DNA of 64,000 nt. It comes from a phage. The stretch is from sequence record OZ346187.1. The stretch is one strand, 5' to 3'. Made by a program: the position numbers and the translations under genes. Below, in pieces: positions 4,488-55,122 of this stretch. The notes under the pieces are model-generated. The model saw nothing but the letters and a program-made list of their open reading frames with translations, ran no database searches and was not told where the DNA came from. The stretch's first letter is position 1; every line of letters starts with the position of its first letter.

Positions 4488-7400
4488 ATGAGTATGTGGA
4501 ATTTTGACTTTGAGGCCTCAGGTCTTCTGGACGAGGAAGATCTTTACTACCATTGTGGCCTGTTTAAAGAGTTGAATAAAAATAATTTTATGTTGTTTTT
4601 GCCTATCAATGATAGATCTCATTACAGTGAAGAGGAGGTTGAAAAAGCAAAACAATTTATGCTGGCAAAGCAAGATATCTATCCTAGCTGCTCTGTCCGT
4701 ATTGCGGATTTCAGCCAGCTTGAATGGTGGTTAACCGGGAACTCCGATTGGTCACCCACATCATTAAGTTGTCACAACTGTTTTAGTTATGACTTTATCT
4801 TGATGGAGAAGCTGTCTGGTATTCATTTTGATATGTTCCGTGATCCCAAGTGTATGGGGACAATCAATAATCATCAGGTGAACCTGTTCGACACTCTGCC
4901 AATGAGTCGTATACTATGGCCCGACAGACCGTTACCTAAAGGATGCCCTGATTCTGTATACAATCCTGTTACAAAACGTATGCAGCAGGTAGGTCCTCAT
5001 GGCCTAATGGCGTGGGGGTACGCTTTAGGAAACCAGAAGGTTAAAATTGATGACTGGAGAAATTTACCTCTGTGGAAGTATGTTGATCGTGTATTCGAGG
5101 ACGTTATCATCCAGGAGCTGCTCTGGAAAGAGCTGGTAGCGGAATCAAAAGGTGTATTCTACGGCAAATCTGACATGCAGAACTTTATGTACGATCCAGC
5201 CAAAGAGAAGCCGAAAGGGTTCAAGAAGATTACCTGGAAGAATGCATTACGCCGAGGCATGCTGCAGCACTTCCTGATGGAGCTGCAGGCCCGTCAGGGT
5301 GTATACTTCGACATAGATGGAGCTATTGCTTTACGTGACCGTTGCGATGCGTGGATGAAAGAAATCGCTGATCGTGTTGAACCACAACTACCTTTAAAAG
5401 AGCTGTCAATGTCTCAGCGGCCCAAGTTCCCTGAAAAGCCGTTTAACCAAGACGGGACAATCTCTAATAATGGTTGGAAATGGTTAAAAGATAAGCTTGG
5501 CTATCCTGTAGACATGAGTGCTTTAGAGTTCAAAGCCCCGCCTAAGCGAGCATTTACCTCTACAGGAGATGTCAGCAAGATGGGGATAAAATGGTGTGAA
5601 GAGATGGGCTGCAAAGACCCCGATAAGATGGCTGATTTCTTGAGAGGCTATATTAAGGGCACCTCCACACCACAACCCTTACCTAAAGAGCTGATGGATC
5701 AGGCAATAAGTGATCTGCAGCAGAAGCGAATGCCTGACTGCAAGATACCTATGAAAATCAGCAATCAGGACGACATCAAGCGATACCTAATCAGTGCTGG
5801 TTGGCTCCCAACAATGTGGAGAACTAAAGATGTAACTAAAGACAGCAAGAAGAAAGCTTTACCTGATGCAGATGTTGATGCACGAGTATATGCATATATG
5901 GACGAGCTTTTGGAGTCAGAGTATTGTGACCTAATTATCAACTTCTGGAACAAAACTGATGCTAAGTTCCAGACAACCGTGCACAAGTTCCGAAGCTTTC
6001 CTAACTCCGAAAGGATTAAAAAGGAAGTATTCGGGAAAATACGTAGAAAAGCCAGGGCACTTATTACTTCTCCGCAACTGAAAGATACGTTTGGACACCT
6101 ATGCCCAAATCTTGAAAAATTGAACGGAGAGATGGCTAAAGATATCGTCTTGTGGTTATCATTGCGAAACCGCAGATCGGTCCTTGATCCAATCAAGGAG
6201 GATAAGGTTGATACTGGTCTTCTTAATCACCCACGTTTGAAGATTGACCATAAGCTTCCTGCTAAAAGCTCTGGATTAACAAACACTTCCAGACAGAAAC
6301 ACAGTATTTGTGCAAACATGCCTAAACCATCTCCTAAAGTGGTTATGGGTAAAGAGATGCGTAGTCTGTGGGGTGTTCCTCCGGGATACTTTGAGATCGG
6401 TATTGACGGGTCCAACTTAGAGCAGCTTATCGGGGCTTGGGGTGCCTTTGAGTTCGACAACGGCCTGTATTATGATGTTGTAAGTAATGGCGATGCACAC
6501 TGTTATTCAGGAGATACACAAATTCTCACGGAGAAAGGGTGGGTGAGGTTTGAAGATCTTGATCCGGGAACACAAGTGTTCCAGTACGATCACAACACCT
6601 CGTCAATGAACCTTGTTACTCCATTAAATTACGTTAAGCGTAGTTATTGTGGGGATATGTATCATTTCCACAACAGTAGTGTGGATTTTATGGTTACAGA
6701 TCAACACAGGATGCTGACTGTGGATCACAGAAGCAATAAATTGTTTGAAGATTTGGCAAAAGACCTGAAAGCAGGTAAAGGGTCTAATTCAGGAAGAAGG
6801 TTTATCCATGCGGCAGAGTTTTATGGGAATACAACCTTATCTCCTGCCCAGGTTAATTTGCTTATTGCTATTCACGATGATGGGCACTTGCATACAAATA
6901 AGGACGGCAGCATCGTGTGCAGGATTCAGGTCGGAAAGGGAAGAAAAGTTGCAACGCTTTTAGATACTTTTTCTGCTCTAAGCCTTAGTTATGTAGAGCA
7001 GAGCGGGAAAACCACAAAAGGGGGCTTACTGGCGAGAAGGTTCCAATTCCACGTTCCGTCCTGGGTATTTGAGTTTTTGGACAACAATAAGGATTTCACC
7101 TATAACCTGATGAACCTTGATAAAGAATCTAAAAACCTGTTTATAGCTTCTTTATCTAACTGGGACGGGTGGGTATCTTCCGAAGGTGGAAAGGTTGCTT
7201 ACTACTCCCAGGCCGAGTGCAGGAAGAAATCTGTAGAGGTGGTGTCTGCGCTGGCTACTCAGTGTGGTTTACGGAATAATACGGTGGCGATTCACAAAAA
7301 AGGTCGTGCCGTGCAGCACAGAATCACAATTGGTAGCAAACAGAGAGCAGGGTTGCTGACACTATCTAAAGAGTCTGTCGAGGTGAGCGGTTCTTTGGTT

Positions 7401-7880
7401 TATTGCGTTACCGTCCCTTCTGGAGCAATCATTGTGAGAAGGAATGGTAAAGTGGCAGTGTGCGGTAACTGTAATAACGCCAAAGCTTACTCTTCTGTAG
7501 CAGGCAAGGAGATTTCCCGTAACGATGGTAAACCTATCACGTATGGGGTTATGTATGGGGCACAAAAAGATAAAGTTGCAGATATGCTGGACATCTCCCC
7601 AGAGTTGGGACAAAGGGTAATCGATGCACTCTGGGATGCCAACCCAGGTCTTAAGGGGCGCAAAGAGGATCTGGAGAAATTCTGGGAAGCAACAGGTAAG
7701 AAGTTTATCTACTCTTTTGATGGTCATGCTATCTGGACCCGATCTAAACACTCTTTACTTAATGCATACCAACAAAATGGCGGTGCATCGTTGTGTGACT
7801 TAGTTGGAATACTCATGCACCACCAGATGGTGAAGCGTGGGTGGTACGATGAAGGTGTTCGTCGTATTATTTATTACCAT
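4488..7880 (+). CDS. DNA polymerase, family A (T7 gp5-like), exon 1, containing an intein
   Basis: N-terminal FDFEASGL...YHCG exonuclease motif; motif A-like IDGSNLEQL; motif B-like RNDGKPITYGVMYGAQ; ORF stop at 7884-7886 is assigned to the intron. Confidence 0.8.
6501..7469 (+). mobile_element. intein with LAGLIDADG-type homing endonuclease, in-frame between polymerase motifs A and B
   Basis: Starts CYSGDTQILTEKG (intein block A); two LAGLIDADG-like motifs (LLIAIHDDGHL, FIASLSNWDGWV); ends ...VAVCGN followed by Cys at 7470; 969 nt, frame preserved. Confidence 0.65.
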
Positions 7881-8132
7881 AAATAACATTGTGGCTTCAT
7901 AGAGTAATCTATGTCGAATAACCTCTTTAACTGCGGGAAGCCTAAACCTTATGGCAAGGTAATCCGCAACGAAGCGCTCAAAAGAGCGAACGCTCAGAGG
8001 CCATTCCGAAAGGAAGTAGACCAGCAAGTGCGGTCGAAATGGGAGGATTCCTGTGGTTGCTTATCATAGGAATATGAGATGGTCCGATCCTACGTGAAAA
8101 CGTATGGCTATGCACGTAATGGTGCGGGGTAG
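7881..8132 (+). mobile_element. ORF-less group I intron in the DNA polymerase gene
   Basis: P-like CTGCGGGAAGCC and Q-like AATCCGCAACG elements; exon ends in U (7880) that can pair with GUGG 11 nt downstream (P1); ACGU-GAAA-ACGU hairpin near 3' end; last nt G (8132); joining 7880 to 8133 keeps frame. Confidence 0.55.
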
Positions 8133-12973: not shown

Positions 12974-13390
12974 ATGACATTAGAAGATATCATTGTTAAA
13001 CCTGAGAACTATGACCAATACAACCTGTCAACTCAATCTGTAGACCTTGGATGCGCCACAGTTAGTGCGTGGCTGGTTAATGGAAAAGAGCTGGACAAGT
13101 GCTTAGAAGCTCACATGTCTGTTAACAAGTTTCTGGATGAAAATACTCACTGGCTTGAGGGTGCTGGAGTATATGCTTCATGGTTGGAGAGCATGGGCTT
13201 TGACTATCAATCTGATGAAGGGTGGTGGAGCTATCTGGCTATCTGTCCAGAAACACTGCAATGCTTCATGAAATACTCTGAAGATCTTGAGTACCGAGCG
13301 GTGGTTGATAGTGCTATTGCCCGTTATAGCCGTAAACCTTTTTCCCATGACATTAAAACTGTGGAAGAATTTGTTGAAGTTTTCTGTTGA
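12974..13390 (+). CDS. hypothetical protein
   Basis: 138-aa ORF after AAGGAGA RBS. Confidence 0.4.
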   Translation: MTLEDIIVKPENYDQYNLSTQSVDLGCATVSAWLVNGKELDKCLEAHMSVNKFLDENTHWLEGAGVYASWLESMGFDYQSDEGWWSYLAICPETLQCFMKYSEDLEYRAVVDSAIARYSRKPFSHDIKTVEEFVEVFC

Positions 13391-13416
13391 CACAGGTTGA
13401 AAGGTGTGCAATTATA
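13387..13416 (+). promoter_or_regulatory. sigma70-type promoter
   Basis: TTGACA, ~17-18 bp spacer, ATTATA. Confidence 0.4.
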
Positions 13417-13752: not shown

Positions 13753-14172
13753 ATGATCTATGAAATGCCAAAACTGATTCGTGACGATGCCCAAAACCAC
13801 ACCATTATTATGGGTAAACGCATGAATATCCTTTGCCGTAACGATTTCTGTGGTGTAGAATACGTTGCAGACTACTTCGGTGAGAATGGTAAACACCCTG
13901 TTCAGTTCTTCCTTGACCATGAGGATAACATTATCTGGGAGTTTGAAACTGAAGATATCCGCAACCTCTTCATCTTCCTCGGTGTCAAGGTTAAGGCCAA
14001 TTTCGCGGAAGGTGAGTGCGACGATTGTGGATTTTATGAGGTGACAGACTTCTATCTCCCGAGTGGCAAGAACATTTACTATGAGAGTCACTTCGGAAAC
14101 ACCAACATGCCTCAAAGCTGGGAAGAATTTTTCAGTATCGTAGAAGAGGAGCTGGCATACCGTGATTATTGA
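13753..14172 (+). CDS. hypothetical protein
   Basis: 139-aa ORF. Confidence 0.4.
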   Translation: MIYEMPKLIRDDAQNHTIIMGKRMNILCRNDFCGVEYVADYFGENGKHPVQFFLDHEDNIIWEFETEDIRNLFIFLGVKVKANFAEGECDDCGFYEVTDFYLPSGKNIYYESHFGNTNMPQSWEEFFSIVEEELAYRDY

Positions 14173-14620
14173 TACTGTAAAGGGAGATTTAATCTCCCTT
14201 TTTAAGAGCGGTGCTGGTCACCTAATCCACGGTTGTAACTGCTTCCACACAATGGGTAAGGGCATAGCAAAACAGATTGCCCGTGAGTTTCCTCAAGCAT
14301 TGTCAGCCGACAAAGAGACCAGACACGGTTGCCTAAGTAAACTGGGTGCGTTCTCCCGATGGGAGCACTTATCTCCGAGAGGTATTGTCTACGGAATCAA
14401 TCTGTATACTCAGTTCTACCCAGGGCCTAATGCTGAATATTTCTCAATCCTGAAAGGCTTTGAGCTAGTCAATGAGGTATTCGAGGGATCGACTTTACCA
14501 TTCTACATCCCTAAGATCGGATGCGGCATAGGCGGTTTGAAGTGGGAGCACGTAGAGGACGTTATTAACCTCGCCACTTTTGATATAGATATTATCGTGG
14601 TGGAGTACAAAGAGTGTTGA
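14162..14620 (+). CDS. macro-domain-like (ADP-ribose binding/processing) protein
   Basis: HGCNCFHTMGKGIAKQIAREFP and IPKIGCGIGG resemble the conserved core of one macro-domain subfamily. Confidence 0.45.
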   Translation: MIIDTVKGDLISLFKSGAGHLIHGCNCFHTMGKGIAKQIAREFPQALSADKETRHGCLSKLGAFSRWEHLSPRGIVYGINLYTQFYPGPNAEYFSILKGFELVNEVFEGSTLPFYIPKIGCGIGGLKWEHVEDVINLATFDIDIIVVEYKEC

Positions 14621-14645
14621 CAGCTGACTTTTGAGATGGTATAGT
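14617..14645 (+). promoter_or_regulatory. sigma70-type promoter
   Basis: TTGACA, 17-bp spacer, TATAGT. Confidence 0.5.
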
Positions 14646-15931: not shown

Positions 15932-16121
15932 GCTTAAATCTGCATGGAACATCGCTGTGGGGGACGAGATCCGCATCCCAGGTGGAAAGACCATTATGAA
16001 GATATCTCGTATCGAGTACGAAGGTGATCGTGTATTTCATATCTTTGCAGAAGATGGTCGAGAAATTTATATACAGGCAGGCTCTCACATCTATATTCGT
16101 AAGAAAGGGGACGACAAATGA
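15924..16121 (+). CDS. hypothetical protein
   Basis: ORF track 15858-16121; ATG at 15924 after AAGGAGGG. Confidence 0.35.
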   Translation: MFKLKSAWNIAVGDEIRIPGGKTIMKISRIEYEGDRVFHIFAEDGREIYIQAGSHIYIRKKGDDK

Positions 16122-16447
16122 CAGAGATCATCATTTCAACTGCAGGGTATGTGTTCCTGACAATCATTGCACTGACCATTTTGGTGGTGGTATATGGAAT
16201 TGTTATTCTCCCTATTCTTGAGACAATTAGTTTGTGTCGGTGTTGGAGAAAGGCTTACGGTCCACAGCCGTGGAAGGACTGGCCCCACCTGGTGCACATA
16301 GCGTTCTCTTATGCTTATGATCACGCCAGCAGTGCATGCATAACCGGGTATCACGCCCACAACTGGAGCTGGGAAGGGTTGAGGAAATGGAATGTTACAA
16401 AGACCATACCTCTGCGCATGTACAAACCTAAAAACAAAGACAGCTGA
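16118..16447 (+). CDS. small membrane protein
   Basis: N-terminal hydrophobic stretch YVFLTIIALTILVVVYGIVILPIL; last plus-strand gene before the junction. Confidence 0.4.
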   Translation: MTEIIISTAGYVFLTIIALTILVVVYGIVILPILETISLCRCWRKAYGPQPWKDWPHLVHIAFSYAYDHASSACITGYHAHNWSWEGLRKWNVTKTIPLRMYKPKNKDS

Positions 16448-16758
16448 TACTTGAAAATCCCTGGCATATCAAGTGTAAGGAGGATTTCTAAAATGGATTT
16501 CCTCCTTTTGATATTTCACCGGGCCAGATATTTTAAAATTCTTAGAAAATCAGGTCTTTGAAATGAAAAACAGATCGAGTACCGAAAGAGGATGTACAAA
16601 TTTTCTGATAATAATGGACTTATTGTTATAAAAGGTCAGAGGTAAGCTGGGAAAGTTCTGGTAGAAGGGTGAGAGTATGTGCGGAAAAATCTGGAATAGT
16701 GACTTAAAGTACGGTGCGAACGATAAGGAATTGAGCAGCACATCTTATCGTGCCTGTA

Positions 16759-17149
16759 TTTTGTGTGGATGAATGAGAATACCTATCATTGTGAGAACCA
16801 TTATCATTACGGGCAATTTAACAGTACCGATTATGCGCACCACTGGCGATACATACAGGGATTGATAACATGGGTTACTGTTTACGCACATAACAATTGT
16901 ATTTCTTACTATTTGTGTGGGCGTTTAGACGTTGACGGTCAGAAGTCTGCAGGTTAATATCTAATCTATTGGCTGCTAACTATATCCCACACAAATAGTA
17001 AGAAATACAATTGTTATGTGCGTAAACAGTAACCCATGTTATCAATCCCTGTATGCATGCCAGTGGTGCGCATAATGGGTATTATGTTAAATTGCCCGTA
17101 ATGATAATGGTTCTCACAATGATAGGTATTCTCATTCATCCACACAAAA
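16759..17149. repeat. large imperfect inverted repeat (two ~163-bp arms, 16759-16921 and 16986-17149, 64-bp spacer)
   Basis: Right arm is the reverse complement of the left with a few substitutions; mirror ORFs 16763-16957(+) and 17014-17205(-) give the same peptide; spacer holds TTGACG, 17 bp, TAATAT. Confidence 0.85.
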
Positions 17150-17379
17150 TAGATTGCAAATGTTGTGCCACTGTGTGAACGGCCTGGCCTATTAATTTGC
17201 CTCACTGCCTTGATATTTGAGAATTATTATAAGAATGAGAAGTATTCCCATTTCGTCCGCCTGGCAGCACTCCTGTAGGTCCTGCAAGGACTCTAGCTGA
17301 AAGCTAGACCCTTCGGGCCTCCCTGCAGGTCAGGTCAAAATCGTGGTAGAATTGGGCCTGTTCAGATATTTCTGGCTGA

Positions 17380-18590
17380 CTCTTCAGGTCTGTGTGGGAA
17401 AAGCCAACCTCTCCGGCGGGGCATGGGGTCATGACGGGAAAATTGCAGGTCAATTAAAAAATTTACGTGGTGTATGAAGCGCTCTTCAGGTAAGGCAGGT
17501 ATTATGGGATGAAACCCTCTTCAGGCAATGATATTTGTGGGTGTGATATTTGCTGGAAAGCCAGATATGACGGGACTCCCGGCGGGGCAGGGGTAGTACA
17601 GACAGGGAAAATATGGAGGATGTGGTTGGGTAAATTGATCAGGCAGGTAGAGTATGGAATATGTTACAGGTATGTTAAATAGGGAGGCTGAATATCTGTA
17701 GGATTTGTGTGTAAAATCAAAGACTTAAGTGGTGTTGTGGTATTTTCTATAAATAATTCAAGTTTAATAGGTAATATTTGTCTCTATTCGCTTTGTGTGG
17801 TAAACAGATTCAGATGAGATTGGTTTACAAGTGTATACATAATATACAAATTAAAGATACAAGAAACCCCCCTCCCCCTTCGGCTACCATTCACCTTTTC
17901 CTCTGACTGGTACTTAAACACTTATTCAGACTCTTCAGGTTATCACCCATATATCATATGGCAGTGACTGGTGTCCTCCGGCCCCTCTTTCGTCACCCGT
18001 CCGCTTCGCCATGCTAATGCCATAGCCAATGGTTCGGTTGTTCACCCTGTTCACTCAGGTGTATCTCCATACCCCTTCAAACCGAAGAGAACAGAAAACC
18101 CGAATTACTCGGTAAAAGAAAAGAGAAGAACTTAATTTTATCAGGATAGGCAAGAATGTCAAGGCATGACTGCTCACTAAACAAGCAAACAGTCATGTGT
18201 GGAAGGTAAGTGATTGTGGTGGTAGGAAATTTAGTTGAAAGATGTGTTATAGGTGCTTCCAGCACTTTAGCCGGGCAGCTAATTGTGTGTCAGTCCAGCG
18301 GTTCATCCTCTACTTCACTGAAATCAATGTTCATGGTCTCTTCCCAACCATCGATCTCAGCACAAGAGTGGAGTTCTTTAGGGTTTACTCCCAAAGCCTC
18401 AGCAACAGAGTCTATATTTAACACCTCTGGCAGGTATGATTCATCGAATTCAAGGTAAATCAGGCCACGAGTGTTGTCAGCTCCACCAAATATCTCTATC
18501 TTCATGAAATCTCCTCTGGAAATGAGAGTGTGAACAGGGTTTTATACGTTCTAATGCACAGGAATTATACACGTTTGCCTCTTCAGGCCA
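17380..18590. repeat. repeat-rich non-coding junction with recurring CTCTTCAGG 9-mer
   Basis: CTCTTCAGG at ~17380, 17482, 17516, 17931, 18579; related blocks CCGGCGGGGCA(T/G)GGGT at 17412 and 17578 and GGCAGGTA at 17493 and 17643; several short hairpins. Confidence 0.6.
18290..18505 (-). CDS. small acidic protein
   Basis: 71 aa, strongly acidic (D/E-rich); RBS-like AGAGGAGA upstream. Confidence 0.4.
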   Translation of the reverse strand: MKIEIFGGADNTRGLIYLEFDESYLPEVLNIDSVAEALGVNPKELHSCAEIDGWEETMNIDFSEVEDEPLD

Positions 18591-18626
18591 TGCTTTAGCA
18601 TGAGGAACCTGTGTGGGCTCGGTGCT

Positions 18627-18839
18627 TCATAGTCTACCACCTCTGAACTCTTCGTGCTCAGGCATAATAGAGAACCAGATATCTACGATGTCCTCCCACG
18701 TCAGGTCATCAGCCTCAGGATCTGTCTGGGACGAAGATGAAGAGTCCTCAGAATCTAAGTTTTCCTCTTTAACTGGCTCATCCAAGGGACATATGGTCAC
18801 TCCTTCGGATGTCTCTTCAGATGCATGTGTGTTGATCAT
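18627..18839 (-). CDS. small acidic protein
   Basis: 70 aa, very acidic with a poly-Ser stretch. Confidence 0.35.
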   Translation of the reverse strand: MINTHASEETSEGVTICPLDEPVKEENLDSEDSSSSSQTDPEADDLTWEDIVDIWFSIMPEHEEFRGGRL

Positions 18840-19199
18840 GTTCCCCCCGTGAGTATTCCGGCAACAGCCGCTATGGAAGTAATGATCATCAGGATCACCA
18901 CTAAAACTTCAGACAATGTTCTCATTGTGTATTCCATATTCTCCAAACTGTGTGTGGATACTATCACGGGAGCGGTAATGTGTCAACAGCAACGCCGCGA
19001 GGGTTTGGTTAAAATCCGAGCGTATGGTGATTTGGGTCAAAACGGACGTGCGTTCTCGCTACGCTCGAAATATGGAGTTGTTTGTAGGGAGCTCTTAAAC
19101 GCTCTGTAATGAGATTAACTGCCCAAGGTATGCAATCGTGCACCAGATAAAGAAAAGGACGCCACAGAGCGTCCTAGGTGTCTTAAATTTGATATTTTG

Positions 19200-19511
19200 C
19201 TATACCCACGAGGGCTTATCAAGGTTGGAGTAGCTGAAAGGTGTCAAAAGGTGACTGTCAAAATCTCTCAAACTATCCAAATCTTTTTCCTCGTCCTGAC
19301 ACCATCTGTGCCTACATTTGTTGTTGTAGTGCATGGAATGCATAGCGTTCTGCAACTTAACAGGCACAAGTGATTCAGGAGTAGATAGTATTGTTGGGTA
19401 TGCCAGAACCACCTCAAACAGTGGAAACACATCGAAACTAAAGTCTACCTCTGCAGAGGTTGATGGCATGTAGGAGTATTTAGCCGCCTTTGTAGACATA
19501 ATCCACCTCAC
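19200..19511 (-). CDS. hypothetical protein
   Basis: 103-aa ORF. Confidence 0.4.
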   Translation of the reverse strand: MRWIMSTKAAKYSYMPSTSAEVDFSFDVFPLFEVVLAYPTILSTPESLVPVKLQNAMHSMHYNNKCRHRWCQDEEKDLDSLRDFDSHLLTPFSYSNLDKPSWV

Positions 19512-19834
19512 ACAGGTTTGATAATACCTTCACCGAATAGCTCTTCGTATCTAATCTTGTCCGGATCCCACTCTTGGATAATTTCGAAGACAATATCCAA
19601 CCCAGGGATAATCACTTCTCCAGTGTCAAGTTTGGCAAGAACAAAACCAGAAGGCTGAATGGTTTCCCAGTTGCGCCGATTGGAATAGAAGACCTCGAAA
19701 ATATCGCCGACCTTTATCTGTTGATCAAGATGTTCAAGATTCTCTTTCATATAGACGCAGCGGATTTTTCGTGCAGGCCATAGACCACCTGCATCACGTT
19801 CATTTAGCTCTTTTACAGTAATCGGTATACCCAT
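19508..19834 (-). CDS. hypothetical protein
   Basis: 108-aa ORF, overlaps downstream start. Confidence 0.4.
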   Translation of the reverse strand: MGIPITVKELNERDAGGLWPARKIRCVYMKENLEHLDQQIKVGDIFEVFYSNRRNWETIQPSGFVLAKLDTGEVIIPGLDIVFEIIQEWDPDKIRYEELFGEGIIKPV

Positions 19835-19857
19835 CTCAAATCTCCTTCATAGATAGT

Positions 19858-19888
19858 AAAAAGAGGGGCCCAAGCCCCCCTCTTTGTC
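19858..19888 (-). terminator. hairpin terminator (possibly bidirectional)
   Basis: AGAGGGG-CCCAAGC-CCCCTCT hairpin flanked by T/A runs on both strands. Confidence 0.5.
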
Positions 19889-19889
19889 A

Positions 19890-20195
19890 TTATTCTACAG
19901 AGCGTTTGAACAGAATGTCTGCCTCAGACATGTGCTCAACCTCTTCTTCGATTTTAGCGCGACGTTTTTCAGCCTCATAGCGAATATCGAACTCGGTAGC
20001 CACCAGAGATTTGATGAATTTAGGAGAATACAGGTGATCCTGCTTCTCAACGAGAATGATATCCTTAATGGCATCTTTCAGATCTTTAATCTGAAGTTGG
20101 AGTTCTACCAGTTCTTCGATTGTTTTGCGAAGGCGATCACGCTCTGCAGTGTCAGAAGGAAGAGAGGTGAACAGTTCAACTTTAGATTTAGCCAT
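19890..20195 (-). CDS. hypothetical coiled-coil protein
   Basis: 101 aa, charged heptad-like sequence. Confidence 0.4.
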   Translation of the reverse strand: MAKSKVELFTSLPSDTAERDRLRKTIEELVELQLQIKDLKDAIKDIILVEKQDHLYSPKFIKSLVATEFDIRYEAEKRRAKIEEEVEHMSEADILFKRSVE

Positions 20196-20223
20196 AGTAA
20201 GAGTCTCCTTATGTTGTTTTAAA

Positions 20224-20541
20224 TTAACGTTCTACAAAAATACCGTTCAGTTCAATAACCAGGAATTTCTGGTCTTCACTATCGTCTCGTGCCAGCACCT
20301 CACAGACGTATCGGTCATCCCCATCATCATCGCAGTAAAATACAAGACTGAGGACTTTATCATGGTAAACCTTCGCAACTACCGCCTCGTAAGTATTGCC
20401 GATTGTGAATCCAAGATAATCTCCGATGCATTTGACAACAACATGGTCTCCAGCATTTAAGTCAATCTTCGTCATTACTGCGCTCCTTGGGTAATAATAC
20501 TGTATGTAAAACTTTAACCAGAGATGTGAATAACGCCCCAA
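20224..20541 (-). CDS. hypothetical protein
   Basis: 105-aa ORF. Confidence 0.4.
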   Translation of the reverse strand: MGRYSHLWLKFYIQYYYPRSAVMTKIDLNAGDHVVVKCIGDYLGFTIGNTYEAVVAKVYHDKVLSLVFYCDDDGDDRYVCEVLARDDSEDQKFLVIELNGIFVER

Positions 20542-20630
20542 AACACACCGATAGCGCTAAAACAGACAAGGCCATCATTAAAGCTTCAGTAAAATCAGTC
20601 ATTCCTCACCTCTTGTTAGTCACTATACTA

Positions 20631-20894
20631 TCATTTATCCTTGTCGTCAAGAACTTTTTTAAATCTTTCAGGGATATCTCCCGTTCTTAGATAGTTCATG
20701 ACCTCGCAAGGTTCCCACTTGAATTTCTTACAGAGCAGGGCGGCTGAGATTGTTTCATTGCGAAAAGAAAGGATATTAATATCCCACTCTGAGAACCCCA
20801 ACTTCCGAAGGGTAGCTACAGAAATCCTCACCGCAACCCAGCAGCAAAAACATGCAACAAACGCCACTGCTACAACCCACATCAGGATGTTCAT
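20631..20894 (-). CDS. small membrane protein
   Basis: N-terminal hydrophobic segment ILMWVVAVAFVACFCCWVAV. Confidence 0.35.
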   Translation of the reverse strand: MNILMWVVAVAFVACFCCWVAVRISVATLRKLGFSEWDINILSFRNETISAALLCKKFKWEPCEVMNYLRTGDIPERFKKVLDDKDK

Positions 20895-20983
20895 ATAAGC
20901 ACCTTACTGAAATACAAGACACAGTGTTAAGGTTACTGACCAGCAAATAATTAACAGTGCCGTTGCAACCTTGGCAAGATTTA

Positions 20984-21271
20984 TCATAGTGCCTCTAAGA
21001 TTTCATATCCTTCGGGTCGGAATACAAGCCACTCCGTGGCTCCGTTTGGTCGATACGCTTTATACAGAACAACCTGGTCTCGGCACATGCACATGGCTAC
21101 ATAGTTTTCATCCACACCTGCAGCCTGCATTGCATCTTCTTCTCCGGCAACTGCTTTGCTTACAACTTCCTTGGTAGGCAGGTGTGCGATCAGCTCGTCA
21201 CCATCATTAATTCCAAAATGGCTGAGTTCGCCGTTGGTATCTTTAATCTTAATCTTAACCAGATCTTTCAT
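20984..21271 (-). CDS. hypothetical protein (small-protein paralog group)
   Basis: 95 aa; MK-hydrophobic N-terminus and acidic C-terminus as in neighbouring ORFs. Confidence 0.4.
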   Translation of the reverse strand: MKDLVKIKIKDTNGELSHFGINDGDELIAHLPTKEVVSKAVAGEEDAMQAAGVDENYVAMCMCRDQVVLYKAYRPNGATEWLVFRPEGYEILEAL

Positions 21272-21600
21272 TAGTCTTCCCCCAGGTTCAAAGGTCCTAA
21301 GATTTCATATGCCAGATTAGAAGTTACAAGAGGGTCTTCTGCGTCTTTAGTATTATACCACCCGTGAATAACCAGAGTCCCACTTTGTTTCATGTCCAAC
21401 TGGAACTCTTCTGCCGTTTCCTCATCCAGCTCCAAGATTTCCATAAGGTATTTGATGTTAGGGAGGTATGCAGCTGTTACAGTCCCCTCTACCAGACCTT
21501 CAGGCCAACCTACATCTGGATGACAAGTAGGAACCAGATTGGTCAGCTTAATGGTGTACGCTTTTTCTGCACGAGCCTTCAGTAACGGGTCAATCTTCAT
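21271..21600 (-). CDS. hypothetical protein
   Basis: 109-aa ORF. Confidence 0.4.
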   Translation of the reverse strand: MKIDPLLKARAEKAYTIKLTNLVPTCHPDVGWPEGLVEGTVTAAYLPNIKYLMEILELDEETAEEFQLDMKQSGTLVIHGWYNTKDAEDPLVTSNLAYEILGPLNLGED

Positions 21601-21950
21601 TATTCGTCCTCCTCTTCGGTACCTGCTTCCAGTAATAAGTTAAGAATATCTTCTGCACAAGGCTCATAGAACTCTTGGCCTTCATTATCGATGATTTTGT
21701 AGTCATCTCCGCGAATAATCAGAGGATCACTCTCAAAATTATCGAGACCTTTAACAACGACAACACGATCGATTGCCATCATTGTAAGAACTTTATCGAC
21801 ATCTTCCTCTGCTACACCATACTGCAGCAGAATGTCTTTGGTAGGAGGAACAGCATCCACCACAACACCGTTACCAAAACCTTCCGGTAAGTTAGCTAAA
21901 ATATCTTCCGGAACCACACTAACATCAAAACCAGTAATTTCTACTTTCAT
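21600..21950 (-). CDS. hypothetical protein (small-protein paralog group)
   Basis: 116 aa; MKVEITG start, acidic tail. Confidence 0.4.
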   Translation of the reverse strand: MKVEITGFDVSVVPEDILANLPEGFGNGVVVDAVPPTKDILLQYGVAEEDVDKVLTMMAIDRVVVVKGLDNFESDPLIIRGDDYKIIDNEGQEFYEPCAEDILNLLLEAGTEEEDE

Positions 21951-22211
21951 TTACAGCACCTCTTCGTCAACTACTTCATAAAAATGGCCTGGGATTGCAA
22001 TAGCGTTCTCACCTTCACCTACAAACACAGTTCCGTCAAGAATCAACATCATAAGAGTTTCTGGAATATCCTCTTCCTGAACGTTGCCAAAACCTTTAAT
22101 CAGCTCGTAGGTTGGAAGATTTACCTCTAAGATGTCACCATCTTTAGAGCGGAAATCAACACCATCCTGAATCTCTGCCATTTCAAGGTTTTTCAGTTTA
22201 ATCTTCATCAA
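21951..22211 (-). CDS. hypothetical protein (small-protein paralog group)
   Basis: 86 aa; MMKIKLKNL start, acidic tail ...VVDEEVL. Confidence 0.4.
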   Translation of the reverse strand: MMKIKLKNLEMAEIQDGVDFRSKDGDILEVNLPTYELIKGFGNVQEEDIPETLMMLILDGTVFVGEGENAIAIPGHFYEVVDEEVL

Positions 22212-22240
22212 TCAGTCTCCCGTCTTGTTAAGATGAAGGT

Positions 22241-22269
22241 ATTATTTCACACAGGGTTGGCGTTGTCAA
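22241..22269 (-). promoter_or_regulatory. sigma70-type promoter (minus strand)
   Basis: Reverse complement reads TTGACA, 17-bp spacer, AATAAT. Confidence 0.4.
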
Positions 22270-22287
22270 CACCTGTGTGCAAGAAAA

Positions 22288-22683
22288 TTACTGAAACAGT
22301 GCGGATAAATTACCTTCTGGTGGGAACTTATCTGCCAAAAACGGTGTTAGCACAGTAGCCTTCTGAAGATCTGGGGTCCACTCGTTGTTCAGAACATCCC
22401 AGTAGTACGCAATGTTGCTGTGTGGGTGCCGCATTACGAACTTTTTCCCTTCGTAGTCATCTGAAACCTCTACAGAAGAAATAACAACAGAATCTTCAAG
22501 GGTTTCTTCATAGAAAGATCCACCTTCAAATTTCCAACGAGATGCAAGAGCTCCTGCCTTGAACGCTGCAGATAACGGACTGTCTGCAAGAACATACATT
22601 TCTTGCACTCTGTCGCTGCGATCTTTGCTTCTTACGTTGTATACAGTATCTGAGCTATACTCAACACGGTATAGGCTTACCAT
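22288..22683 (-). CDS. hypothetical protein (paralog of 24490-24888)
   Basis: Shared motifs with 24490-24888: HP(H/D)S...(Y/H)YW(D/N)...(E/T)WTP. Confidence 0.45.
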   Translation of the reverse strand: MVSLYRVEYSSDTVYNVRSKDRSDRVQEMYVLADSPLSAAFKAGALASRWKFEGGSFYEETLEDSVVISSVEVSDDYEGKKFVMRHPHSNIAYYWDVLNNEWTPDLQKATVLTPFLADKFPPEGNLSALFQ

Positions 22684-23042
22684 TACCGCACCTCCTCAAT
22701 AACTTCCACATCTGAGCCCACCACAAATGCAAAAGGACAGGTTTCATGAAAGACATCCGGATCGCCGCCAAGCTTGCTAACAATCTCTCCACCACTAATA
22801 AACACAAGCTCACCGATATTCATCAGATTGCTGAAATAGTACCCATAATGATTAAAGAATGCAGCAGGGTCAGGTAGACTAGTAGCCTCAAGCACTACAT
22901 CAGTTGAGGTTACTTTCTTATCATAACCTCTCGCCTTTTGAGATGCAAGATCTGCAGAATCCTCAGGCGACCGGAGATGCACAGGAATTGTTTCACCAAT
23001 AAAGCGTACTTTCATATTATCACCCAACAACCATAGCTTCAA
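22683..23042 (-). CDS. hypothetical protein (small-protein paralog group)
   Basis: Internal MKVRFIGE... to ...SDVEVIEE matches the family; true start may be at 23015. Confidence 0.4.
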   Translation of the reverse strand: MKLWLLGDNMKVRFIGETIPVHLRSPEDSADLASQKARGYDKKVTSTDVVLEATSLPDPAAFFNHYGYYFSNLMNIGELVFISGGEIVSKLGGDPDVFHETCPFAFVVGSDVEVIEEVR

Positions 23043-23283
23043 AAGGGGTCATGAACGAATAAACGGCATCATCATCTGCTTCAGGGAATGCTCCCAAAGA
23101 CTTCATGTCTGAGCCCTTGACAAATACAAGGTTTTGATCAAAAGCTTCTTGAGGATCAATCCGATACATATTTCGTAGAATATCGCCTACCTCCTCATCA
23201 AGAGGTGAGTATGCTGTGCACGTTTTTCCGATCAAGCTTTGAGAATCAGGGTATCCACCTGAAGTTTTAAAATAAACAATCAT
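23020..23283 (-). CDS. hypothetical protein (small-protein paralog group)
   Basis: 87 aa; contains VFVKGSDMKSLGA. Confidence 0.4.
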   Translation of the reverse strand: MIVYFKTSGGYPDSQSLIGKTCTAYSPLDEEVGDILRNMYRIDPQEAFDQNLVFVKGSDMKSLGAFPEADDDAVYSFMTPFEAMVVG

Positions 23284-23374
23284 ATAGTATCACCTCTGGT
23301 AAGAGATTGGGATTCCTTTCCCACAAATAATTACAAACCTTCCTTATCGAGGAAGTATGCTAATCCAAGCAGGA

Positions 23375-23644
23375 TTATTCCTCTACAATCTCATACACAT
23401 CCGGAGTTACAATCAACTCTTCTCCGTTACCCGGTGCAACAAACACCACCATGCCTTCAGGTGTGTGCTTTTTAGCCATCTCGATAACATCTTCTCGCAG
23501 AGCTGGCTCCATCAGATCAAAACCTTCACCCAGGGCATCACGAACCACCTTCATATAGTCAACTGGTTGTGCTTCGACAATCATACCTTCAACCAGTCCA
23601 CAGTTTTTGTCTGCCAGCTCAGTTTTGAATAATTTAATTTTCAT
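23375..23644 (-). CDS. hypothetical protein (small-protein paralog group)
   Basis: 89 aa; MKIKLFK start, ends ...YEIVEE. Confidence 0.4.
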   Translation of the reverse strand: MKIKLFKTELADKNCGLVEGMIVEAQPVDYMKVVRDALGEGFDLMEPALREDVIEMAKKHTPEGMVVFVAPGNGEELIVTPDVYEIVEE

Positions 23645-23781
23645 TTAGAGGTCTCCTCAATTATTTGATATTAATAGCCGTAACCTAACACATTAACTAC
23701 AACTGCGATTGCAAACATAATTTCAAAGCATGCAATCTCTACATTTGGAACTAATTTCTTGATCACACCCATTGTAGCACC

Positions 23782-24099
23782 TCATTCTCTAAAGTCAATC
23801 TTTACTTTGCCTTTCCCCTTACCTTTCTTTCCACCGCATTTAGCCAGTTGACGTGCTGCAACATCTACCATACGGTCAGTTGCCTCGTAAGCATCACTGC
23901 CTTTAGCTTTGGCAATAACTTCTTTTCCAGAATTGTCAAAAATGAACGCCATAACTTCCTGGTGATCATTTTCAACTTTTACACTCACACGTGCATAGTT
24001 GGCAGAGGGATGCAAACGCTCCAGCTTAGACATTTTGTGGGAAATGAAAGACACCATACCTTCAGTGATTTCTACGTTGCCAGTGATTTCAATTTGCAT
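23782..24099 (-). CDS. hpf: ribosome hibernation promoting factor / RaiA-like protein
   Basis: MQIEITGNVEITEG...KLERL...VKVE...DAYEA.D...RQLAK with basic tail follows the bacterial HPF/YfiA pattern (MQLNITGNNVEITEAL...KL...). Confidence 0.6.
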   Translation of the reverse strand: MQIEITGNVEITEGMVSFISHKMSKLERLHPSANYARVSVKVENDHQEVMAFIFDNSGKEVIAKAKGSDAYEATDRMVDVAARQLAKCGGKKGKGKGKVKIDFRE

Positions 24100-24146
24100 A
24101 ACGTGTTCCTTTTAAAGAAGAGGGAACCAAACCCTCTTTGAAAACA

Positions 24147-24175
24147 ATGATACTAAATCTGAAGCGTTGTGTCAA
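24147..24175 (-). promoter_or_regulatory. sigma70-type promoter (minus strand)
   Basis: Reverse complement reads TTGACA, 17-bp spacer, TATCAT; lies upstream of the HPF-like gene. Confidence 0.45.
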
Positions 24176-24181
24176 CAGTTT

Positions 24182-24472
24182 TTACAGATTGTTGTCGATA
24201 GTTTTTAAAATATCCACAGCAAGATCTGCCATTTTTCGAACATACTCTGCAAACTCAACAGGATCCTTGATCAAAGAATTCACAGGGTCGTACCCTAGAG
24301 CGTTCAAAATGGCTGCAGCATCTACAACCTTCTCATCATTTGCGAAGATCTCTCCATCAAACTTGTAGGTCCATTTTGAGTCAATCTTGGCAGGGAATGA
24401 TTGGTCAACGCTTGTTACACCATCCTTTTTAAACGCTCCGGTGTTATCAGTGTCTAGAACTAAATCCATCAT
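24182..24472 (-). CDS. hypothetical protein
   Basis: 96-aa ORF. Confidence 0.4.
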   Translation of the reverse strand: MMDLVLDTDNTGAFKKDGVTSVDQSFPAKIDSKWTYKFDGEIFANDEKVVDAAAILNALGYDPVNSLIKDPVEFAEYVRKMADLAVDILKTIDNNL

Positions 24473-24489
24473 GTTAGTACCTCACCGTT

Positions 24490-24888
24490 TCAGTTTAGCT
24501 TTTCTTCAACAACCCCATAGCTCGGGACAGAGTCAAGAGCTTTCTGGTTTAAAAGTGGTGTAGCAGAATCTGCAAACGGTGTCCAAGTTTTTGTTCTGGC
24601 ATTCCAGTAATGCTTCACTCTGGAATCTGGATGCACTATAACAAAAACTTTTTCACTTGTCAACACATTAATTTCTTCTACACCCTTGCTGATAATTTCT
24701 CCGTCATAGCCACCAGTCTGGTATCCTTCGTACCAGGTTCTTGCATATGCATAGCCAGCCTGCCAGCATGCAGCCTCCTCCGAGGTGGAGACTACGTAGA
24801 AGTCTTTCTCAAATTCTGGGATACGCCCTTGCTTTACGCTCCAAGCTCCGCGAATTTTCATTGTAACTTTGAACAGTTTATTTTTCAC
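24490..24888 (-). CDS. hypothetical protein (paralog of 22288-22683)
   Basis: Shared motifs VIVHPDSRVKHYWNARTKTWTP. Confidence 0.45.
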   Translation of the reverse strand: MKNKLFKVTMKIRGAWSVKQGRIPEFEKDFYVVSTSEEAACWQAGYAYARTWYEGYQTGGYDGEIISKGVEEINVLTSEKVFVIVHPDSRVKHYWNARTKTWTPFADSATPLLNQKALDSVPSYGVVEEKLN

Positions 24889-24900
24889 AACGGTTACCCA

Positions 24901-25155
24901 TCACAGCTCTACAATCTCTGCATCTGACCCTGCCCCAAAGGCATAATAGGATTCTTCCCCGAAATAATATTCCGGTGCACCAGCAGCGATCAGGTCTGAT
25001 CCCAAGATAAACACCACGTTGTGGCCTACATAACTGTGATGTTGCCGCACAGGATCATCCCACGGCAACCCTTCAAAGTATACCGCAGGAACGACCTTTC
25101 CCTTCAGGAAGGATTGTCCCAAGTAGACGTTAGAATCAAGAATTTTAACCTTCAT
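24901..25155 (-). CDS. hypothetical protein (small-protein paralog group)
   Basis: MKVKILDS...GSDLIAAGA...EIVEL. Confidence 0.45.
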   Translation of the reverse strand: MKVKILDSNVYLGQSFLKGKVVPAVYFEGLPWDDPVRQHHSYVGHNVVFILGSDLIAAGAPEYYFGEESYYAFGAGSDAEIVEL

Positions 25156-25372
25156 TCTCGTCCTCCACTATCTCTACATCCTCACCAAGGGCAAAGTTGT
25201 AGGTCCACTGGCTGTCAAAGCAGTCCTGAGATGCACCAGCGGAAATAAGATCTGCACCTTTTATTTTTAAAAGGTCAGGATAATCTTCGTTAGGGATAGC
25301 GGTAAACACTTTCCCCACTAAGGGCTCCTGACCAATATAGAAGCTTGAATCTAAAACTTTAACTTTCATCAA
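25145..25372 (-). CDS. hypothetical protein (small-protein paralog group)
   Basis: MMKVKVLDS...GADLISAGA...EIVEDENEG. Confidence 0.45.
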   Translation of the reverse strand: MMKVKVLDSSFYIGQEPLVGKVFTAIPNEDYPDLLKIKGADLISAGASQDCFDSQWTYNFALGEDVEIVEDENEG

Positions 25373-25949: not shown

Positions 25950-26044
25950 AATTCAGCCTCGCATAGACATAATCACTATAAACAGGCAAACAATGAATCC
26001 GAATGCCACGCCACCCATAAACGTTAATATTGATGCAATCATAG

Positions 26045-26230: not shown

Positions 26231-26248
26231 AAAACCCCCCCACCTGGT

Positions 26249-27071: not shown

Positions 27072-27133
27072 TCTCTCTACCTCTTTCTTAGTTTATTTCA
27101 CTATGGCACATCCTTTGTGCCATATCTCAACCA

Positions 27134-55109: not shown

Positions 55110-55122
55110 TGAAGGTCTCCTT

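What the first reader, a model, noticed from the sequence alone, without database searches (positions are those of the whole stretch)
14162..14620. Macro-domain-like protein encoded far from the Sir2-like gene
HGCNCFHTMGKGIAKQ and IPKIGCGIGG resemble a macro-domain subfamily that binds or hydrolyses ADP-ribose derivatives. Macro domains are functional partners of sirtuin-type ADP-ribosyltransferases, so the phage may both write and erase ADP-ribosylation or process defence-generated ADP-ribose signals.
Basis: inference. Interest (0 to 1): 0.55.

Follow-up and report, generated by a model that had tools for sequence, protein, structure and literature searches.

The report
Phage macrodomain, likely anti-DarTG2 enzyme
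This rV5-like coliphage gene encodes a small stand-alone macrodomain related to phage T4 Tk.4 (AdfM), so it most likely strips ADP-ribose off phage DNA to defeat the bacterial DarTG2 defence rather than partnering the phage's distant Sir2 gene; it is a new member of a known kind.

Summary
ORF 14162..14620 (+) encodes a 152-aa macrodomain: Pfam Macro is above its gathering score, the AlphaFold model has pLDDT 96.7, and the best PDB folds are TARG1, Poa1p and DarG. A real Sir2 gene lies about 40 kb away at 55123..55884 (-).

The window is a Vequintavirus (rV5-like), 98.6% identical to BASEL phage Bas57. The protein is 40% identical over its full length to T4 Tk.4. A 2025 preprint renamed Tk.4 AdfM because deleting it makes T4 sensitive to DarTG2.

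The active site is Gln-type. The invariant Q84 sits where DarG has K80 and TARG1 has K84, and it matches Gln85 of SCO6735. SCO6735 removes thymidine-linked ADP-ribose from DNA, and its Q85A mutant is inactive.

The proposed Sir2 partnership is not supported:
- The Sir2 is a CobB/SIRT5-type deacylase on the other strand.
- T5 carries a 57%-identical Sir2 but no macro homolog, and T5 is the standard DarTG2-sensitive phage.
- At least 1715 macro-positive phage records have no Sir2 hit.

Relatives of this gene are already annotated as macro domain proteins. I rate it a new member of a known kind, with modest interest. One small twist is that this lineage is not a captured DarG2. Its nearest cellular relatives are stand-alone Gln-type macrodomains with no DarT neighbour.

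The parts
14162..14620 (+). Coding sequence of the 152-aa stand-alone macrodomain protein (GTG start, TGA stop); related to T4 Tk.4/AdfM
   Evidence: ORF list. Pfam Macro above gathering score. PHROG 335 E 2.9e-60. 40% identity to T4 Tk.4 over the full length, E 8e-42. AF2 model pLDDT 96.7, pTM 0.91. Foldseek hits to TARG1, Poa1p and DarG.
14228..14263 (+). Codons 23-34, HGCNCFHTMGKG: first ADP-ribose-binding/catalytic loop. H23, N26 and K33 correspond to SCO6735 H24, N27 and K34. N26 corresponds to DarG N22 and PhiKZ AdfM N23.
   Evidence: Alignment A2. G24, N26 and G34 are invariant and H23 and G32 are >=90% conserved in 66 homologs. Residue roles come from PMC9411070 and PMC13309987.
14399..14413 (+). 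Codons 80-84, NLYTQ. Q84 (14411-14413) occupies the position of the catalytic Lys of DarG (K80) and TARG1 (K84), and of the essential Gln85 of SCO6735.
   Evidence: Alignments. N80 and Q84 are invariant in 66 homologs and in 80 of 80 bacterial relatives, where these positions were not part of the search pattern. SCO6735 Q85A is inactive.
14516..14536 (+). Codons 119-125, IGCGIGG: second glycine-rich phosphate/ribose-binding loop. G124 sits where TARG1 has D125.
   Evidence: Alignment A2. G120 is invariant and G122 and G125 are >=90% conserved.
14146..14151 (+). GAGGAG Shine-Dalgarno-like sequence, 10 nt upstream of the GTG start
   Evidence: Read directly from the sequence; function is inferred.
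13753..14172 (+). Upstream 139-aa gene of unknown function (phrog_8157). Its stop overlaps the macro GTG start by 11 nt, so translational coupling is likely. The same arrangement is seen in rV5_ev146, Bas57 and Bas54.
   Evidence: No Pfam hit. Not related to T4 Vs, the gene upstream of tk.4.
13387..13415 (+). Sigma-70-like promoter (TTGACA-17-AATTAT, extended -10 TG), the nearest strong candidate upstream of the unit that contains the macro gene
   Evidence: Consensus scan; 19 sites found against 8.8 expected. Function is inferred.
14617..14645 (+). Near-consensus sigma-70-like promoter (TTGACA-17-TATAGT, 11/12, TG) that overlaps the macro stop codon and starts the next small-gene unit. It indicates a region transcribed by host RNA polymerase, i.e. 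early.
   Evidence: Consensus scan; early timing is inferred.

Best explanation
The gene encodes a stand-alone ADP-ribosyl-glycohydrolase macrodomain related to T4 Tk.4/AdfM. It appears to be expressed from host-type promoters in the early region next to the replication genes.

Proposed mechanism: when the phage infects an E. coli strain carrying a DarTG2 toxin-antitoxin defence, the released DarT2 toxin ADP-ribosylates thymidines in TNTC motifs of single-stranded phage DNA and blocks replication. The phage macrodomain binds the ADP-ribose through its two glycine-rich loops. It then hydrolyses the thymidine-ribose bond using a Gln-based active site (N26 and Q84, as in SCO6735) rather than the Lys of DarG. 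This restores replicable DNA.

Shown here: the fold, the homology to T4 Tk.4, conservation of the active-site residues, dispensability in standard laboratory culture, and absence of the gene from DarTG2-sensitive T5.

Inferred: the substrate (thymidine-linked ADP-ribose on DNA) and the anti-DarTG2 phenotype for this particular protein.
For: Homology. The protein is 40% identical to T4 Tk.4 end to end (E 8e-42) and shares HGCNCFHTMG and NLYTQFxPGPN. T4 tk.4 was the single significant hit in a DarTG2 transposon screen, a clean knockout sensitised T4 to DarTG2, and the gene was renamed adfM (preprint 10.1101/2025.11.20.689424).

Curated libraries. The only PADLOC and NCBIfam hits are to the macrodomain part of DarG, at 51.1 and 48.5 bits. 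The top PDB sequence hit is the Mtb DarG macrodomain 5m3i.

Structure. The model is confident (pLDDT 96.7) and matches TARG1, Poa1p, DarG, BT1257 and SCO6735 with TM 0.72-0.77. The family profile hits BT1257 at 4e-19 and SCO6735 at 3.5e-17.

Active site. Q84 aligns with SCO6735 Gln85. SCO6735 removes thymidine-linked ADP-ribose from DNA and rescues cells from DarT, and its Q85A mutant is inactive (PMC9411070; alignment). N26 and Q84 are invariant in 66 homologs.

Precedent. A separate phage macrodomain, PhiKZ AdfM, has been shown in vitro to remove DarT2 ADP-ribose from DNA (PMC13309987).

T5. T5 is strongly restricted by DarTG2 and has no homolog of this gene.

Accessory character. The Bas54 ortholog bas54_0092 is non-essential (31 of 31 TA sites hit), as is T4 tk.4 (45 of 46).

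Expression. Sigma-70-type promoters flank the unit.
Against: No experiment exists for this protein or for any Vequintavirus ortholog. The T4 evidence is genetic only and comes from a preprint. Identity to T4 Tk.4 is only 40%.

The catalytic Lys of DarG is absent. The SCO6735-specific features proposed to aid DNA catalysis are also missing: Val25 is replaced by the invariant Gly24, and the long Lys-rich mobile loop is absent. The Gln-type mechanism on DNA is therefore an extrapolation.

Enzymes of this class (TARG1, SCO6735) also act on protein-linked ADP-ribose, and TARG1 also acts on O-acetyl-ADP-ribose, so DNA need not be the only or main substrate.

The nearest cellular relatives are stand-alone proteins with no DarT neighbour, so the ancestral role of the family is not antitoxin activity.
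Confidence: 0.6

Rival explanations
1. It is a general de-ADP-ribosylase whose main substrates are proteins or RNA rather than DNA. It would reverse ADP-ribosylation installed by other host ADP-ribosyltransferase toxins or defences (for example mRNA-targeting ARTs). Anti-DarTG2 activity would be absent or secondary.
For: Class relatives TARG1 and SCO6735 hydrolyse Glu/Asp-linked protein ADP-ribose as well as DNA-linked ADP-ribose. The family is very widespread, with 2727 phage records across many host genera and 507 bacterial species without a DarT neighbour. That breadth suggests a substrate more general than DarT2 products.
Against: The only phenotype known for a family member is DarTG2-specific; tk.4 was the single hit in that screen. 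No ADP-ribosyltransferase was found among the 21 different window ORFs scanned against Pfam.
Confidence: 0.2
2. One reading: it works with the phage Sir2. It would either hydrolyse the O-acyl-ADP-ribose that the sirtuin produces or erase ADP-ribosylation that the sirtuin writes.
For: Both genes are conserved in essentially all Vequintavirus records: 119 records match the macro region by DNA, and 117 records carry Sir2 at >=90% identity. TARG1-class macrodomains can deacetylate O-acetyl-ADP-ribose.
Against: The genes are 40 kb apart on opposite strands. The Sir2 is a CobB/SIRT5-type deacylase, not a macro-linked SirTM. T5 has the Sir2 but no macro. At least 1715 macro-positive phage records have no Sir2 hit. 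Co-occurrence within a single genus is explained by common descent.
Confidence: 0.1
3. The legacy annotation: it is an ADP-ribose-1''-phosphate phosphatase like yeast Poa1p, clearing a by-product of 2'-phosphotransferase-dependent RNA ligation. This might tie in with the phage RNA ligase and tRNA genes.
For: PHROG 335 and many GenBank records call it 'phosphatase'. The HxCNC motif matches Poa1p (HSCNC), and Poa1p is among the top fold hits. An RNA ligase gene lies at 56240..57175.
Against: Poa1p has Ser where this family has the invariant Gln, and it carries a large insertion that is absent here. The 'phosphatase' label is inherited from the old A1pp domain name, not from an assay. No Tpt1/KptA-type enzyme was seen in the ORFs scanned.
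Confidence: 0.05
4. It degrades or sequesters ADP-ribose-derived immune signals, such as Thoeris cyclic-ADPR isomers.
For: Macrodomains bind ADP-ribose.
Against: No similarity to known Thoeris anti-defence proteins was seen in the PHROG, Pfam or PADLOC results. The conserved catalytic residues match glycohydrolases of the TARG1/DarG/SCO6735 class.
Confidence: 0.03

Closest known systems
T4 Tk.4 = AdfM (anti-DarT factor Macrodomain; HIDEN-SEQ preprint 10.1101/2025.11.20.689424)
   Same: Both are stand-alone phage macrodomains of about 150 aa. They are 40% identical end to end and share HGCNCFHTMG, NLYTQFxPGPN and the glycine loop. Both have Gln at the DarG catalytic-Lys position, both are dispensable in standard laboratory culture, and both overlap their upstream gene.
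   Different: The phage subfamily differs (Vequintavirinae against Tevenvirinae) and so do the neighbouring genes; the upstream gene here is unrelated to T4 vs. No DarTG2 phenotype has been measured for the Vequintavirus protein.
PhiKZ gp104 AdfM (chimallivirus DarG2-like macrodomain; PMC13309987)
   Same: It is a phage-encoded stand-alone macrodomain that counters DarTG2 by removing ADP-ribose from DNA, and it has the conserved active-site Asn.
   Different: PhiKZ AdfM keeps the DarG-type catalytic Lys (K78) and is imported into the phage nucleus. The window protein has Gln at that position and belongs to a different sequence lineage.
DarG2 antitoxin macrodomain (T. aquaticus and M. tuberculosis; PDB 5M31, 5M3E, 5M3I; NCBIfam NF048014)
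   Same: Same fold and same ADP-ribose-binding loops. DarG is the only curated defence-related family hit.
   Different: The window protein has no C-terminal DarT-binding domain (it matches profile positions 2-143 of 338). It has Gln instead of the catalytic Lys80, no adjacent DarT gene, and only about 25% identity.
SCO6735 (Streptomyces coelicolor) and BT1257 (ALC1-like, Gln-type macrodomain hydrolases; PDB 5E3B, 2FG1)
   Same: These are the best family-profile hits. The essential Gln (Q85 = Q84 here) and the H24, N27 and K34 equivalents are present. SCO6735 removes thymidine-linked ADP-ribose from ssDNA.
   Different: The window protein has the invariant Gly24 where SCO6735 has Val25. It lacks the 5-7-residue-longer, Lys-rich mobile loop (K89, K93), and identity is about 26%.
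Human TARG1/OARD1 (PDB 4J5R/4J5S)
   Same: It is the top Foldseek hit (E 1e-9, TM 0.75), of similar size, with a short mobile loop and the PRIGCG loop.
   Different: The TARG1 catalytic dyad K84/D125 is replaced here by Q84/G124.

Membership tests
Macro domain superfamily (Pfam PF01661) | Profile match above the curated gathering score | tested here: met
   28.5 bits against a gathering score of 22, E 1.6e-6.
Macro domain superfamily (Pfam PF01661) | Three-layer alpha/beta/alpha macro fold | tested here: met
   AF2 model pLDDT 96.7, pTM 0.91. 180 PDB matches at E<=1e-3; apart from a set of designed serine hydrolases (OSH55 variants) and one unrelated plant-protein complex, the 50 best listed are macrodomains, with TARG1 TM 0.75.
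Macro domain superfamily (Pfam PF01661) | Binds ADP-ribose | not testable with these tools
   Only the conservation of the two glycine-rich binding loops can be shown.
T4 Tk.4 / AdfM lineage (Gln-type phage macrodomain) | Full-length homology to T4 Tk.4 with shared HGCNC and NLYTQ motifs, stand-alone and about 150 aa | tested here: met
   40% identity over 150 of 152 aa, E 8e-42. Motifs aligned. Same PHROG 335.
T4 Tk.4 / AdfM lineage (Gln-type phage macrodomain) | Required for phage growth on DarTG2-carrying hosts | not testable with these tools
   Known only for T4. Indirect support: DarTG2-sensitive T5 lacks the gene.
DarG2 antitoxin (NCBIfam NF048014, PADLOC DarG) | Score above the equivalog cut-off, with two domains (macro plus C-terminal DarT-binding domain) | tested here: not met
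   48.5 bits against a cut-off of 250. Only profile positions 2-143 of 338 are matched, and the protein is 152 aa.
DarG2 antitoxin (NCBIfam NF048014, PADLOC DarG) | Catalytic lysine (K80 in T. aquaticus DarG) | tested here: not met
   Gln84 is at that column; it is invariant in 66 homologs and in 80 bacterial relatives.
DarG2 antitoxin (NCBIfam NF048014, PADLOC DarG) | Encoded next to a DarT toxin gene | tested here: not met
   The neighbours are small phage genes of unknown function. The 80 bacterial relatives have no recurrent neighbour.
SCO6735/BT1257 subclass of ALC1-like macrodomains | Essential Gln in place of the TARG1/DarG Lys, with His, Asn and Lys of the first loop | tested here: met
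   Q84, H23, N26 and K33 align with Q85, H24, N27 and K34; roles are.
SCO6735/BT1257 subclass of ALC1-like macrodomains | Val/Ile25 and the extended Lys-rich mobile loop characteristic of the subclass | tested here: not met
   Gly24 is invariant at the Val25 column. The loop is 6-7 residues shorter and has no Lys.
TARG1/OARD1 | Lys84/Asp125 catalytic dyad | tested here: not met
   Gln84 and Gly124 occupy the two columns.
Poa1p ADP-ribose-1''-phosphate phosphatase | Poa1p-type active site and phosphatase activity | tested here: inconclusive
   HxCNC is shared, including the equivalents of Poa1p His23 and Ser30 (Thr30 here). Poa1p has Ser at the Q84 column and a large insertion of about 22 aligned residues (26 once the neighbouring 4-residue insertion is counted) that is absent here. 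Activity is not testable.
SirTM-macrodomain pairs (sirtuin writer plus macro eraser operons) | Macro gene adjacent to and co-transcribed with a class M ADP-ribosylating sirtuin | tested here: not met
   The Sir2 is 40 kb away on the other strand and is CobB/SIRT5-like. The Sir2 occurs without a macro in T5.

The most novel reading that the evidence does not exclude
The T4/rV5-type AdfM may not be a captured DarG2 antitoxin. It may instead belong to a separate, stand-alone Gln-type macrodomain family (HGCNC...NLYTQ) that is also present in hundreds of bacterial species with no DarT neighbour. If so, phages recruited anti-DarT2 macrodomains at least twice, once Lys-type (PhiKZ) and once Gln-type (T4, rV5). 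The Gln-type enzymes would use a SCO6735/ALC1-like, lysine-independent mechanism. That mechanism may give them a broader substrate range, covering DNA-, protein- or RNA-linked ADP-ribose and possibly the O-acyl-ADP-ribose made by the phage Sir2.
Probability: 0.35. Interest if true: 0.45.

Novelty: new member of a known kind. Interest (0 to 1): 0.3.

Why it matters
If the assignment holds, rV5-like phages, which are popular therapy and biocontrol candidates against pathogenic E. coli, carry a built-in enzymatic counter to DarTG2. That would help predict their host range on DarTG2-carrying strains.

More generally, the T4/rV5 AdfM lineage has Gln where DarG has its catalytic Lys. Its nearest cellular relatives are orphan macrodomains rather than antitoxins. 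This suggests a second, mechanistically distinct route by which phages acquired DNA de-ADP-ribosylation. It also gives a concrete residue (Q84) to test.

The gene itself is ordinary: it is widely annotated, conserved, and assigned by homology.

Tried and rejected
1. Sir2 partnership. I tested it by distribution and rejected it as an obligate link. T5 has the Sir2 but no macro, and the record counts are 2727 for the macro against 1012 for the Sir2.
2. Upstream gene. I checked whether the overlapping upstream gene is a homolog of T4 vs, which precedes tk.4. It is not (E 0.057 over 15 residues), and it has no Pfam domain.
3. Other ADP-ribose genes. I looked for a NADAR (AdfN-type), an ADP-ribosyltransferase or other NAD/ADP-ribose genes among 21 different window ORFs. 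None turned up apart from the macro gene itself and the Sir2. The 'putative glycosidase' homolog at 28256..28789 has no Pfam hit. This was not an exhaustive scan of every small ORF.
4. DarT neighbours. I looked for DarT next to the bacterial relatives. No neighbour family recurs in more than 7 of 80 loci, and those that recur look like housekeeping genes shared by related taxa, judged from their sequences since no neighbour cluster was profiled.
5. Literature. A search for 'AdfM' was swamped by a journal abbreviation. The original DarTG phage-defence paper (LeRoux et al. 2022) is not in the searchable library, so I could not check whether any rV5-like phage was tested against DarTG2.
6. Model geometry. 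I could not inspect side-chain geometry because model coordinates are not exposed. Residue equivalences rest on sequence and profile alignments.

Full report
**Observation.**
Both quoted peptide strings are in its translation. A GAGGAG Shine-Dalgarno-like sequence lies 10 nt upstream. The GTG start overlaps the stop of the preceding 139-aa ORF (13753..14172) by 11 nt.

The macrodomain call is well beyond chance:
- Pfam Macro PF01661 scores 28.5 bits against a gathering score of 22.
- PHROG 335 ('phosphatase') matches over the whole length at E 2.9e-60.
- A plain sequence search of the PDB finds the M. tuberculosis DarG macrodomain (5m3i, 8e-8), yeast Poa1p and human TARG1/OARD1.

ORF 55123..55884 (-) matches Pfam SIR2 at 98 bits, about 40.5 kb away on the opposite strand.

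**Source genome.**
The window is a Vequintavirus (rV5-like myovirus of E. coli). It is 98.6% identical over the 3-kb test stretch to Escherichia phage MaxTheCat, which is BASEL phage Bas57. The same CDS is annotated in relatives under several names: 'hypothetical protein', 'macro domain protein', 'O-acetyl-ADP-ribose deacetylase', and 'T4-like protein with Macro domain, Poa1p_like family'. The domain assignment is therefore already in public records.

**Family and fold.**
tblastn finds relatives in 2727 phage records. They include T4-like phages, where the gene is tk.4, next to vs and tk. The window protein is 40% identical to T4 Tk.4 over its full length (E 8e-42). The two share HGCNCFHTMG, NLYTQFxPGPN and the glycine loop.

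An AlphaFold2 model built on a 66-sequence alignment is very confident (pLDDT 96.7, pTM 0.91). Foldseek against the PDB gives TARG1, Poa1p, T. aquaticus and M. tuberculosis DarG, BT1257 and SCO6735, at TM 0.72-0.77. The family profile hits BT1257 (4e-19), SCO6735 (3.5e-17), Poa1p, TARG1 and DarG, the last three at 1e-16 to 3e-16.

Among predicted viral structures the best matches are a Marseillevirus SNF2 (ALC1-like) protein's macrodomain (TM 0.94) and Acinetobacter phage 133 Tk.4. In PADLOC and NCBIfam the only hit is the macrodomain part of DarG (51.1 and 48.5 bits). That is far below the equivalog cut-off of 250, because the C-terminal DarT-binding domain is missing.

**What is known about relatives.**
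A 2025 preprint screened a T4 transposon library on a DarTG2-expressing host. It found tk.4 as the single significant hit, showed that a clean tk.4 knockout sensitises T4 to DarTG2, and renamed the gene adfM.

Independently, the chimallivirus macrodomain PhiKZ gp104, also named AdfM, was shown in vitro to remove DarT2-installed ADP-ribose from DNA. [quoted passage not shown]

SCO6735 of Streptomyces removes thymidine-linked ADP-ribose from ssDNA and rescues cells from DarT. It does this although it has Gln85 where DarG has K80 and TARG1 has K84, and its Q85A mutant is inactive.

**Active site.**
In a seven-sequence alignment the window's Q84 and the T4 Tk.4 Gln fall in the column of SCO6735 Q85 and the BT1257 Gln. 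TARG1 and DarG have Lys there and Poa1p has Ser (the same pairing appears). H23, N26 and K33 match SCO6735 H24, N27 and K34. G124 sits where TARG1 has D125.

The phage protein differs from SCO6735 in two ways. It has the invariant Gly24 where SCO6735 has Val25. It also has a mobile loop 6-7 residues shorter, without the Lys residues implicated in DNA binding.

N26, N80, Q84 and the loop glycines are invariant across the 66 homologs. The protein therefore looks like an active enzyme of the Gln type.

**Cellular relatives.**
A scan of one genome per bacterial species found 507 species with relatives at 37-45% identity. In the 80 fetched loci:
- every relative has N..YTQ, and those positions were not part of the search pattern;
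- about three-quarters of the ORFs are 147-165 aa;
- no neighbour family recurs in more than 7 loci, and those that recur look like housekeeping genes shared by related taxa.

There is thus no sign of a DarT partner or of the two-domain DarG architecture. One caveat applies: the scan pattern (HG[CA]NC...) could not have found DarG-type sequences. The statement is about the nearest relatives, not about all macrodomains.

**Testing the Sir2 partnership.**
Four points argue against it:
- The Sir2 protein's best solved relatives are E. coli CobB and human SIRT5, with the catalytic His and the YNARR motif aligned. Its NCBIfam hits are CobB-type deacylases and it has no PADLOC hit. It looks like a class III deacylase, not a macro-linked ADP-ribosylating sirtuin.
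- Its homologs occur in 1012 phage records, many of them T5-like.
- I fetched the whole unique T5 genome and searched it. T5 has a 57%-identical Sir2 (E 1e-98) but nothing resembling the macrodomain. The best tblastn hit is E 3.5 and the best family-HMM hit is E 0.19, against 2.5e-60 and 8.8e-52 for the window and T4 controls.
- With 2727 macro-positive and 1012 Sir2-positive records, at least 1715 macro-positive records have no Sir2 hit.

Both genes are conserved across Vequintavirus, but within one genus that reflects shared descent. T5 is also the standard DarTG2-sensitive phage. Its lack of this gene fits the anti-DarTG2 reading.

**Context and expression.**
The gene sits among small + strand genes downstream of the helicase, primase and DNA polymerase genes. 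Near-consensus sigma-70-type promoters lie at 13387-13415, 14617-14645 and 15073-15100, and a terminator lies at 12927-12948. The scan found 19 promoter-like sites against 8.8 expected. This suggests early transcription by host RNA polymerase, which is an inference.

The overlapping upstream gene (phrog_8157) has no Pfam domain and is unrelated to T4 vs.

In the HIDEN-SEQ supplement, bas54_0092 is scored non-essential, with 31 of 31 TA sites hit. It can be recognised as the ortholog by the gene-size order 417/198/426/459 bp and the 11-nt overlap. T4 tk.4 is also non-essential, with 45 of 46 sites hit. This is what one expects of an accessory counter-defence gene.

**Conclusion.**
The best-supported reading (confidence about 0.6) is an AdfM-type counter-defence enzyme. 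It would remove DarT2-installed ADP-ribose from thymidines in phage ssDNA, using a Gln-based site as in SCO6735.

The main rival (about 0.2) is a broader or different substrate range, meaning protein- or RNA-linked ADP-ribose from other toxins. The Sir2-partner idea (about 0.1), the legacy Appr-1''-p phosphatase label (about 0.05) and signal degradation (about 0.03) have little support.

The finding is a new member of a known kind, of modest interest. The one point not stated in the papers I read is that the T4/rV5 AdfM lineage is Gln-type. Its nearest cellular relatives are orphan macrodomains rather than DarG2 antitoxins, which hints that it was recruited independently of the Lys-type PhiKZ AdfM.

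Noticed in passing
window 4488..7886 (+): The DNA polymerase ORF is 1132 aa, against 809 aa in rV5_ev146, and the MaxTheCat CDS is annotated as joined from two pieces. A weak Hint_2 match (E 8.8e-4, below the gathering score) at aa 672-706 suggests an intein inserted in the polymerase.
   Followed up: partly
window 34506..37426 (-): The anaerobic ribonucleotide reductase gene nrdD is split into two ORFs. ORF 36563..37426 carries ATP-cone plus NRDD positions 1-154, and ORF 34506..35714 carries NRDD positions 180-562 plus the glycyl-radical domain. An HNH homing-endonuclease ORF (35808..36341) lies between them. The gene is a single 1911-bp CDS in MaxTheCat.
   Followed up: partly
window 54396..57175 (-): The CobB/SIRT5-like Sir2 (55123..55884) is flanked by a 237-aa protein matching PHROG 671 'nucleotide pyrophosphohydrolase' (54396..55109) and by a T4 Rnl1-type RNA ligase (56240..57175). 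T5 has a 57%-identical Sir2. The function of phage sirtuins remains unexplained.
   Followed up: partly
window 61162..61974 (+): A cluster of seven tRNA genes (Arg, Tyr, Ser, Thr, Met, Pro), plus one ARAGORN call with a four-base anticodon (61631..61729) that may be a tRNA-like or frameshift-suppressor-type element.
   Followed up: no
window 13753..14172 (+): The 139-aa protein translationally coupled to the macro gene has no Pfam domain. It contains two Cys pairs (CRNDFC ... CDDC) that could form a zinc-binding site. It is conserved with the macro gene in rV5_ev146, Bas57 and Bas54, and whether it works with the macrodomain is unknown.
   Followed up: partly
loci L008-L087 (bacterial genomes): Stand-alone Gln-type macrodomains (HGCNC...YTQ, about 150 aa) at 37-45% identity to the phage protein occur in 507 bacterial species, including Desulfobacter, Ruegeria, Shewanella, Verrucomicrobiota and Bacteroidota. 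They lie in chromosomal contexts with no recurrent neighbour and no DarT, and their cellular role is unknown.
   Followed up: partly
window about 16000..30000 compared with MaxTheCat (L003/L004): The window is about 10.7 kb shorter than MaxTheCat between the macro region and the DNA ligase gene (offsets 61917 against 72664). Its tRNA cluster lies beyond the Sir2 and RNA ligase genes, so the accessory small-gene region differs between these otherwise 98%-identical phages.
   Followed up: no
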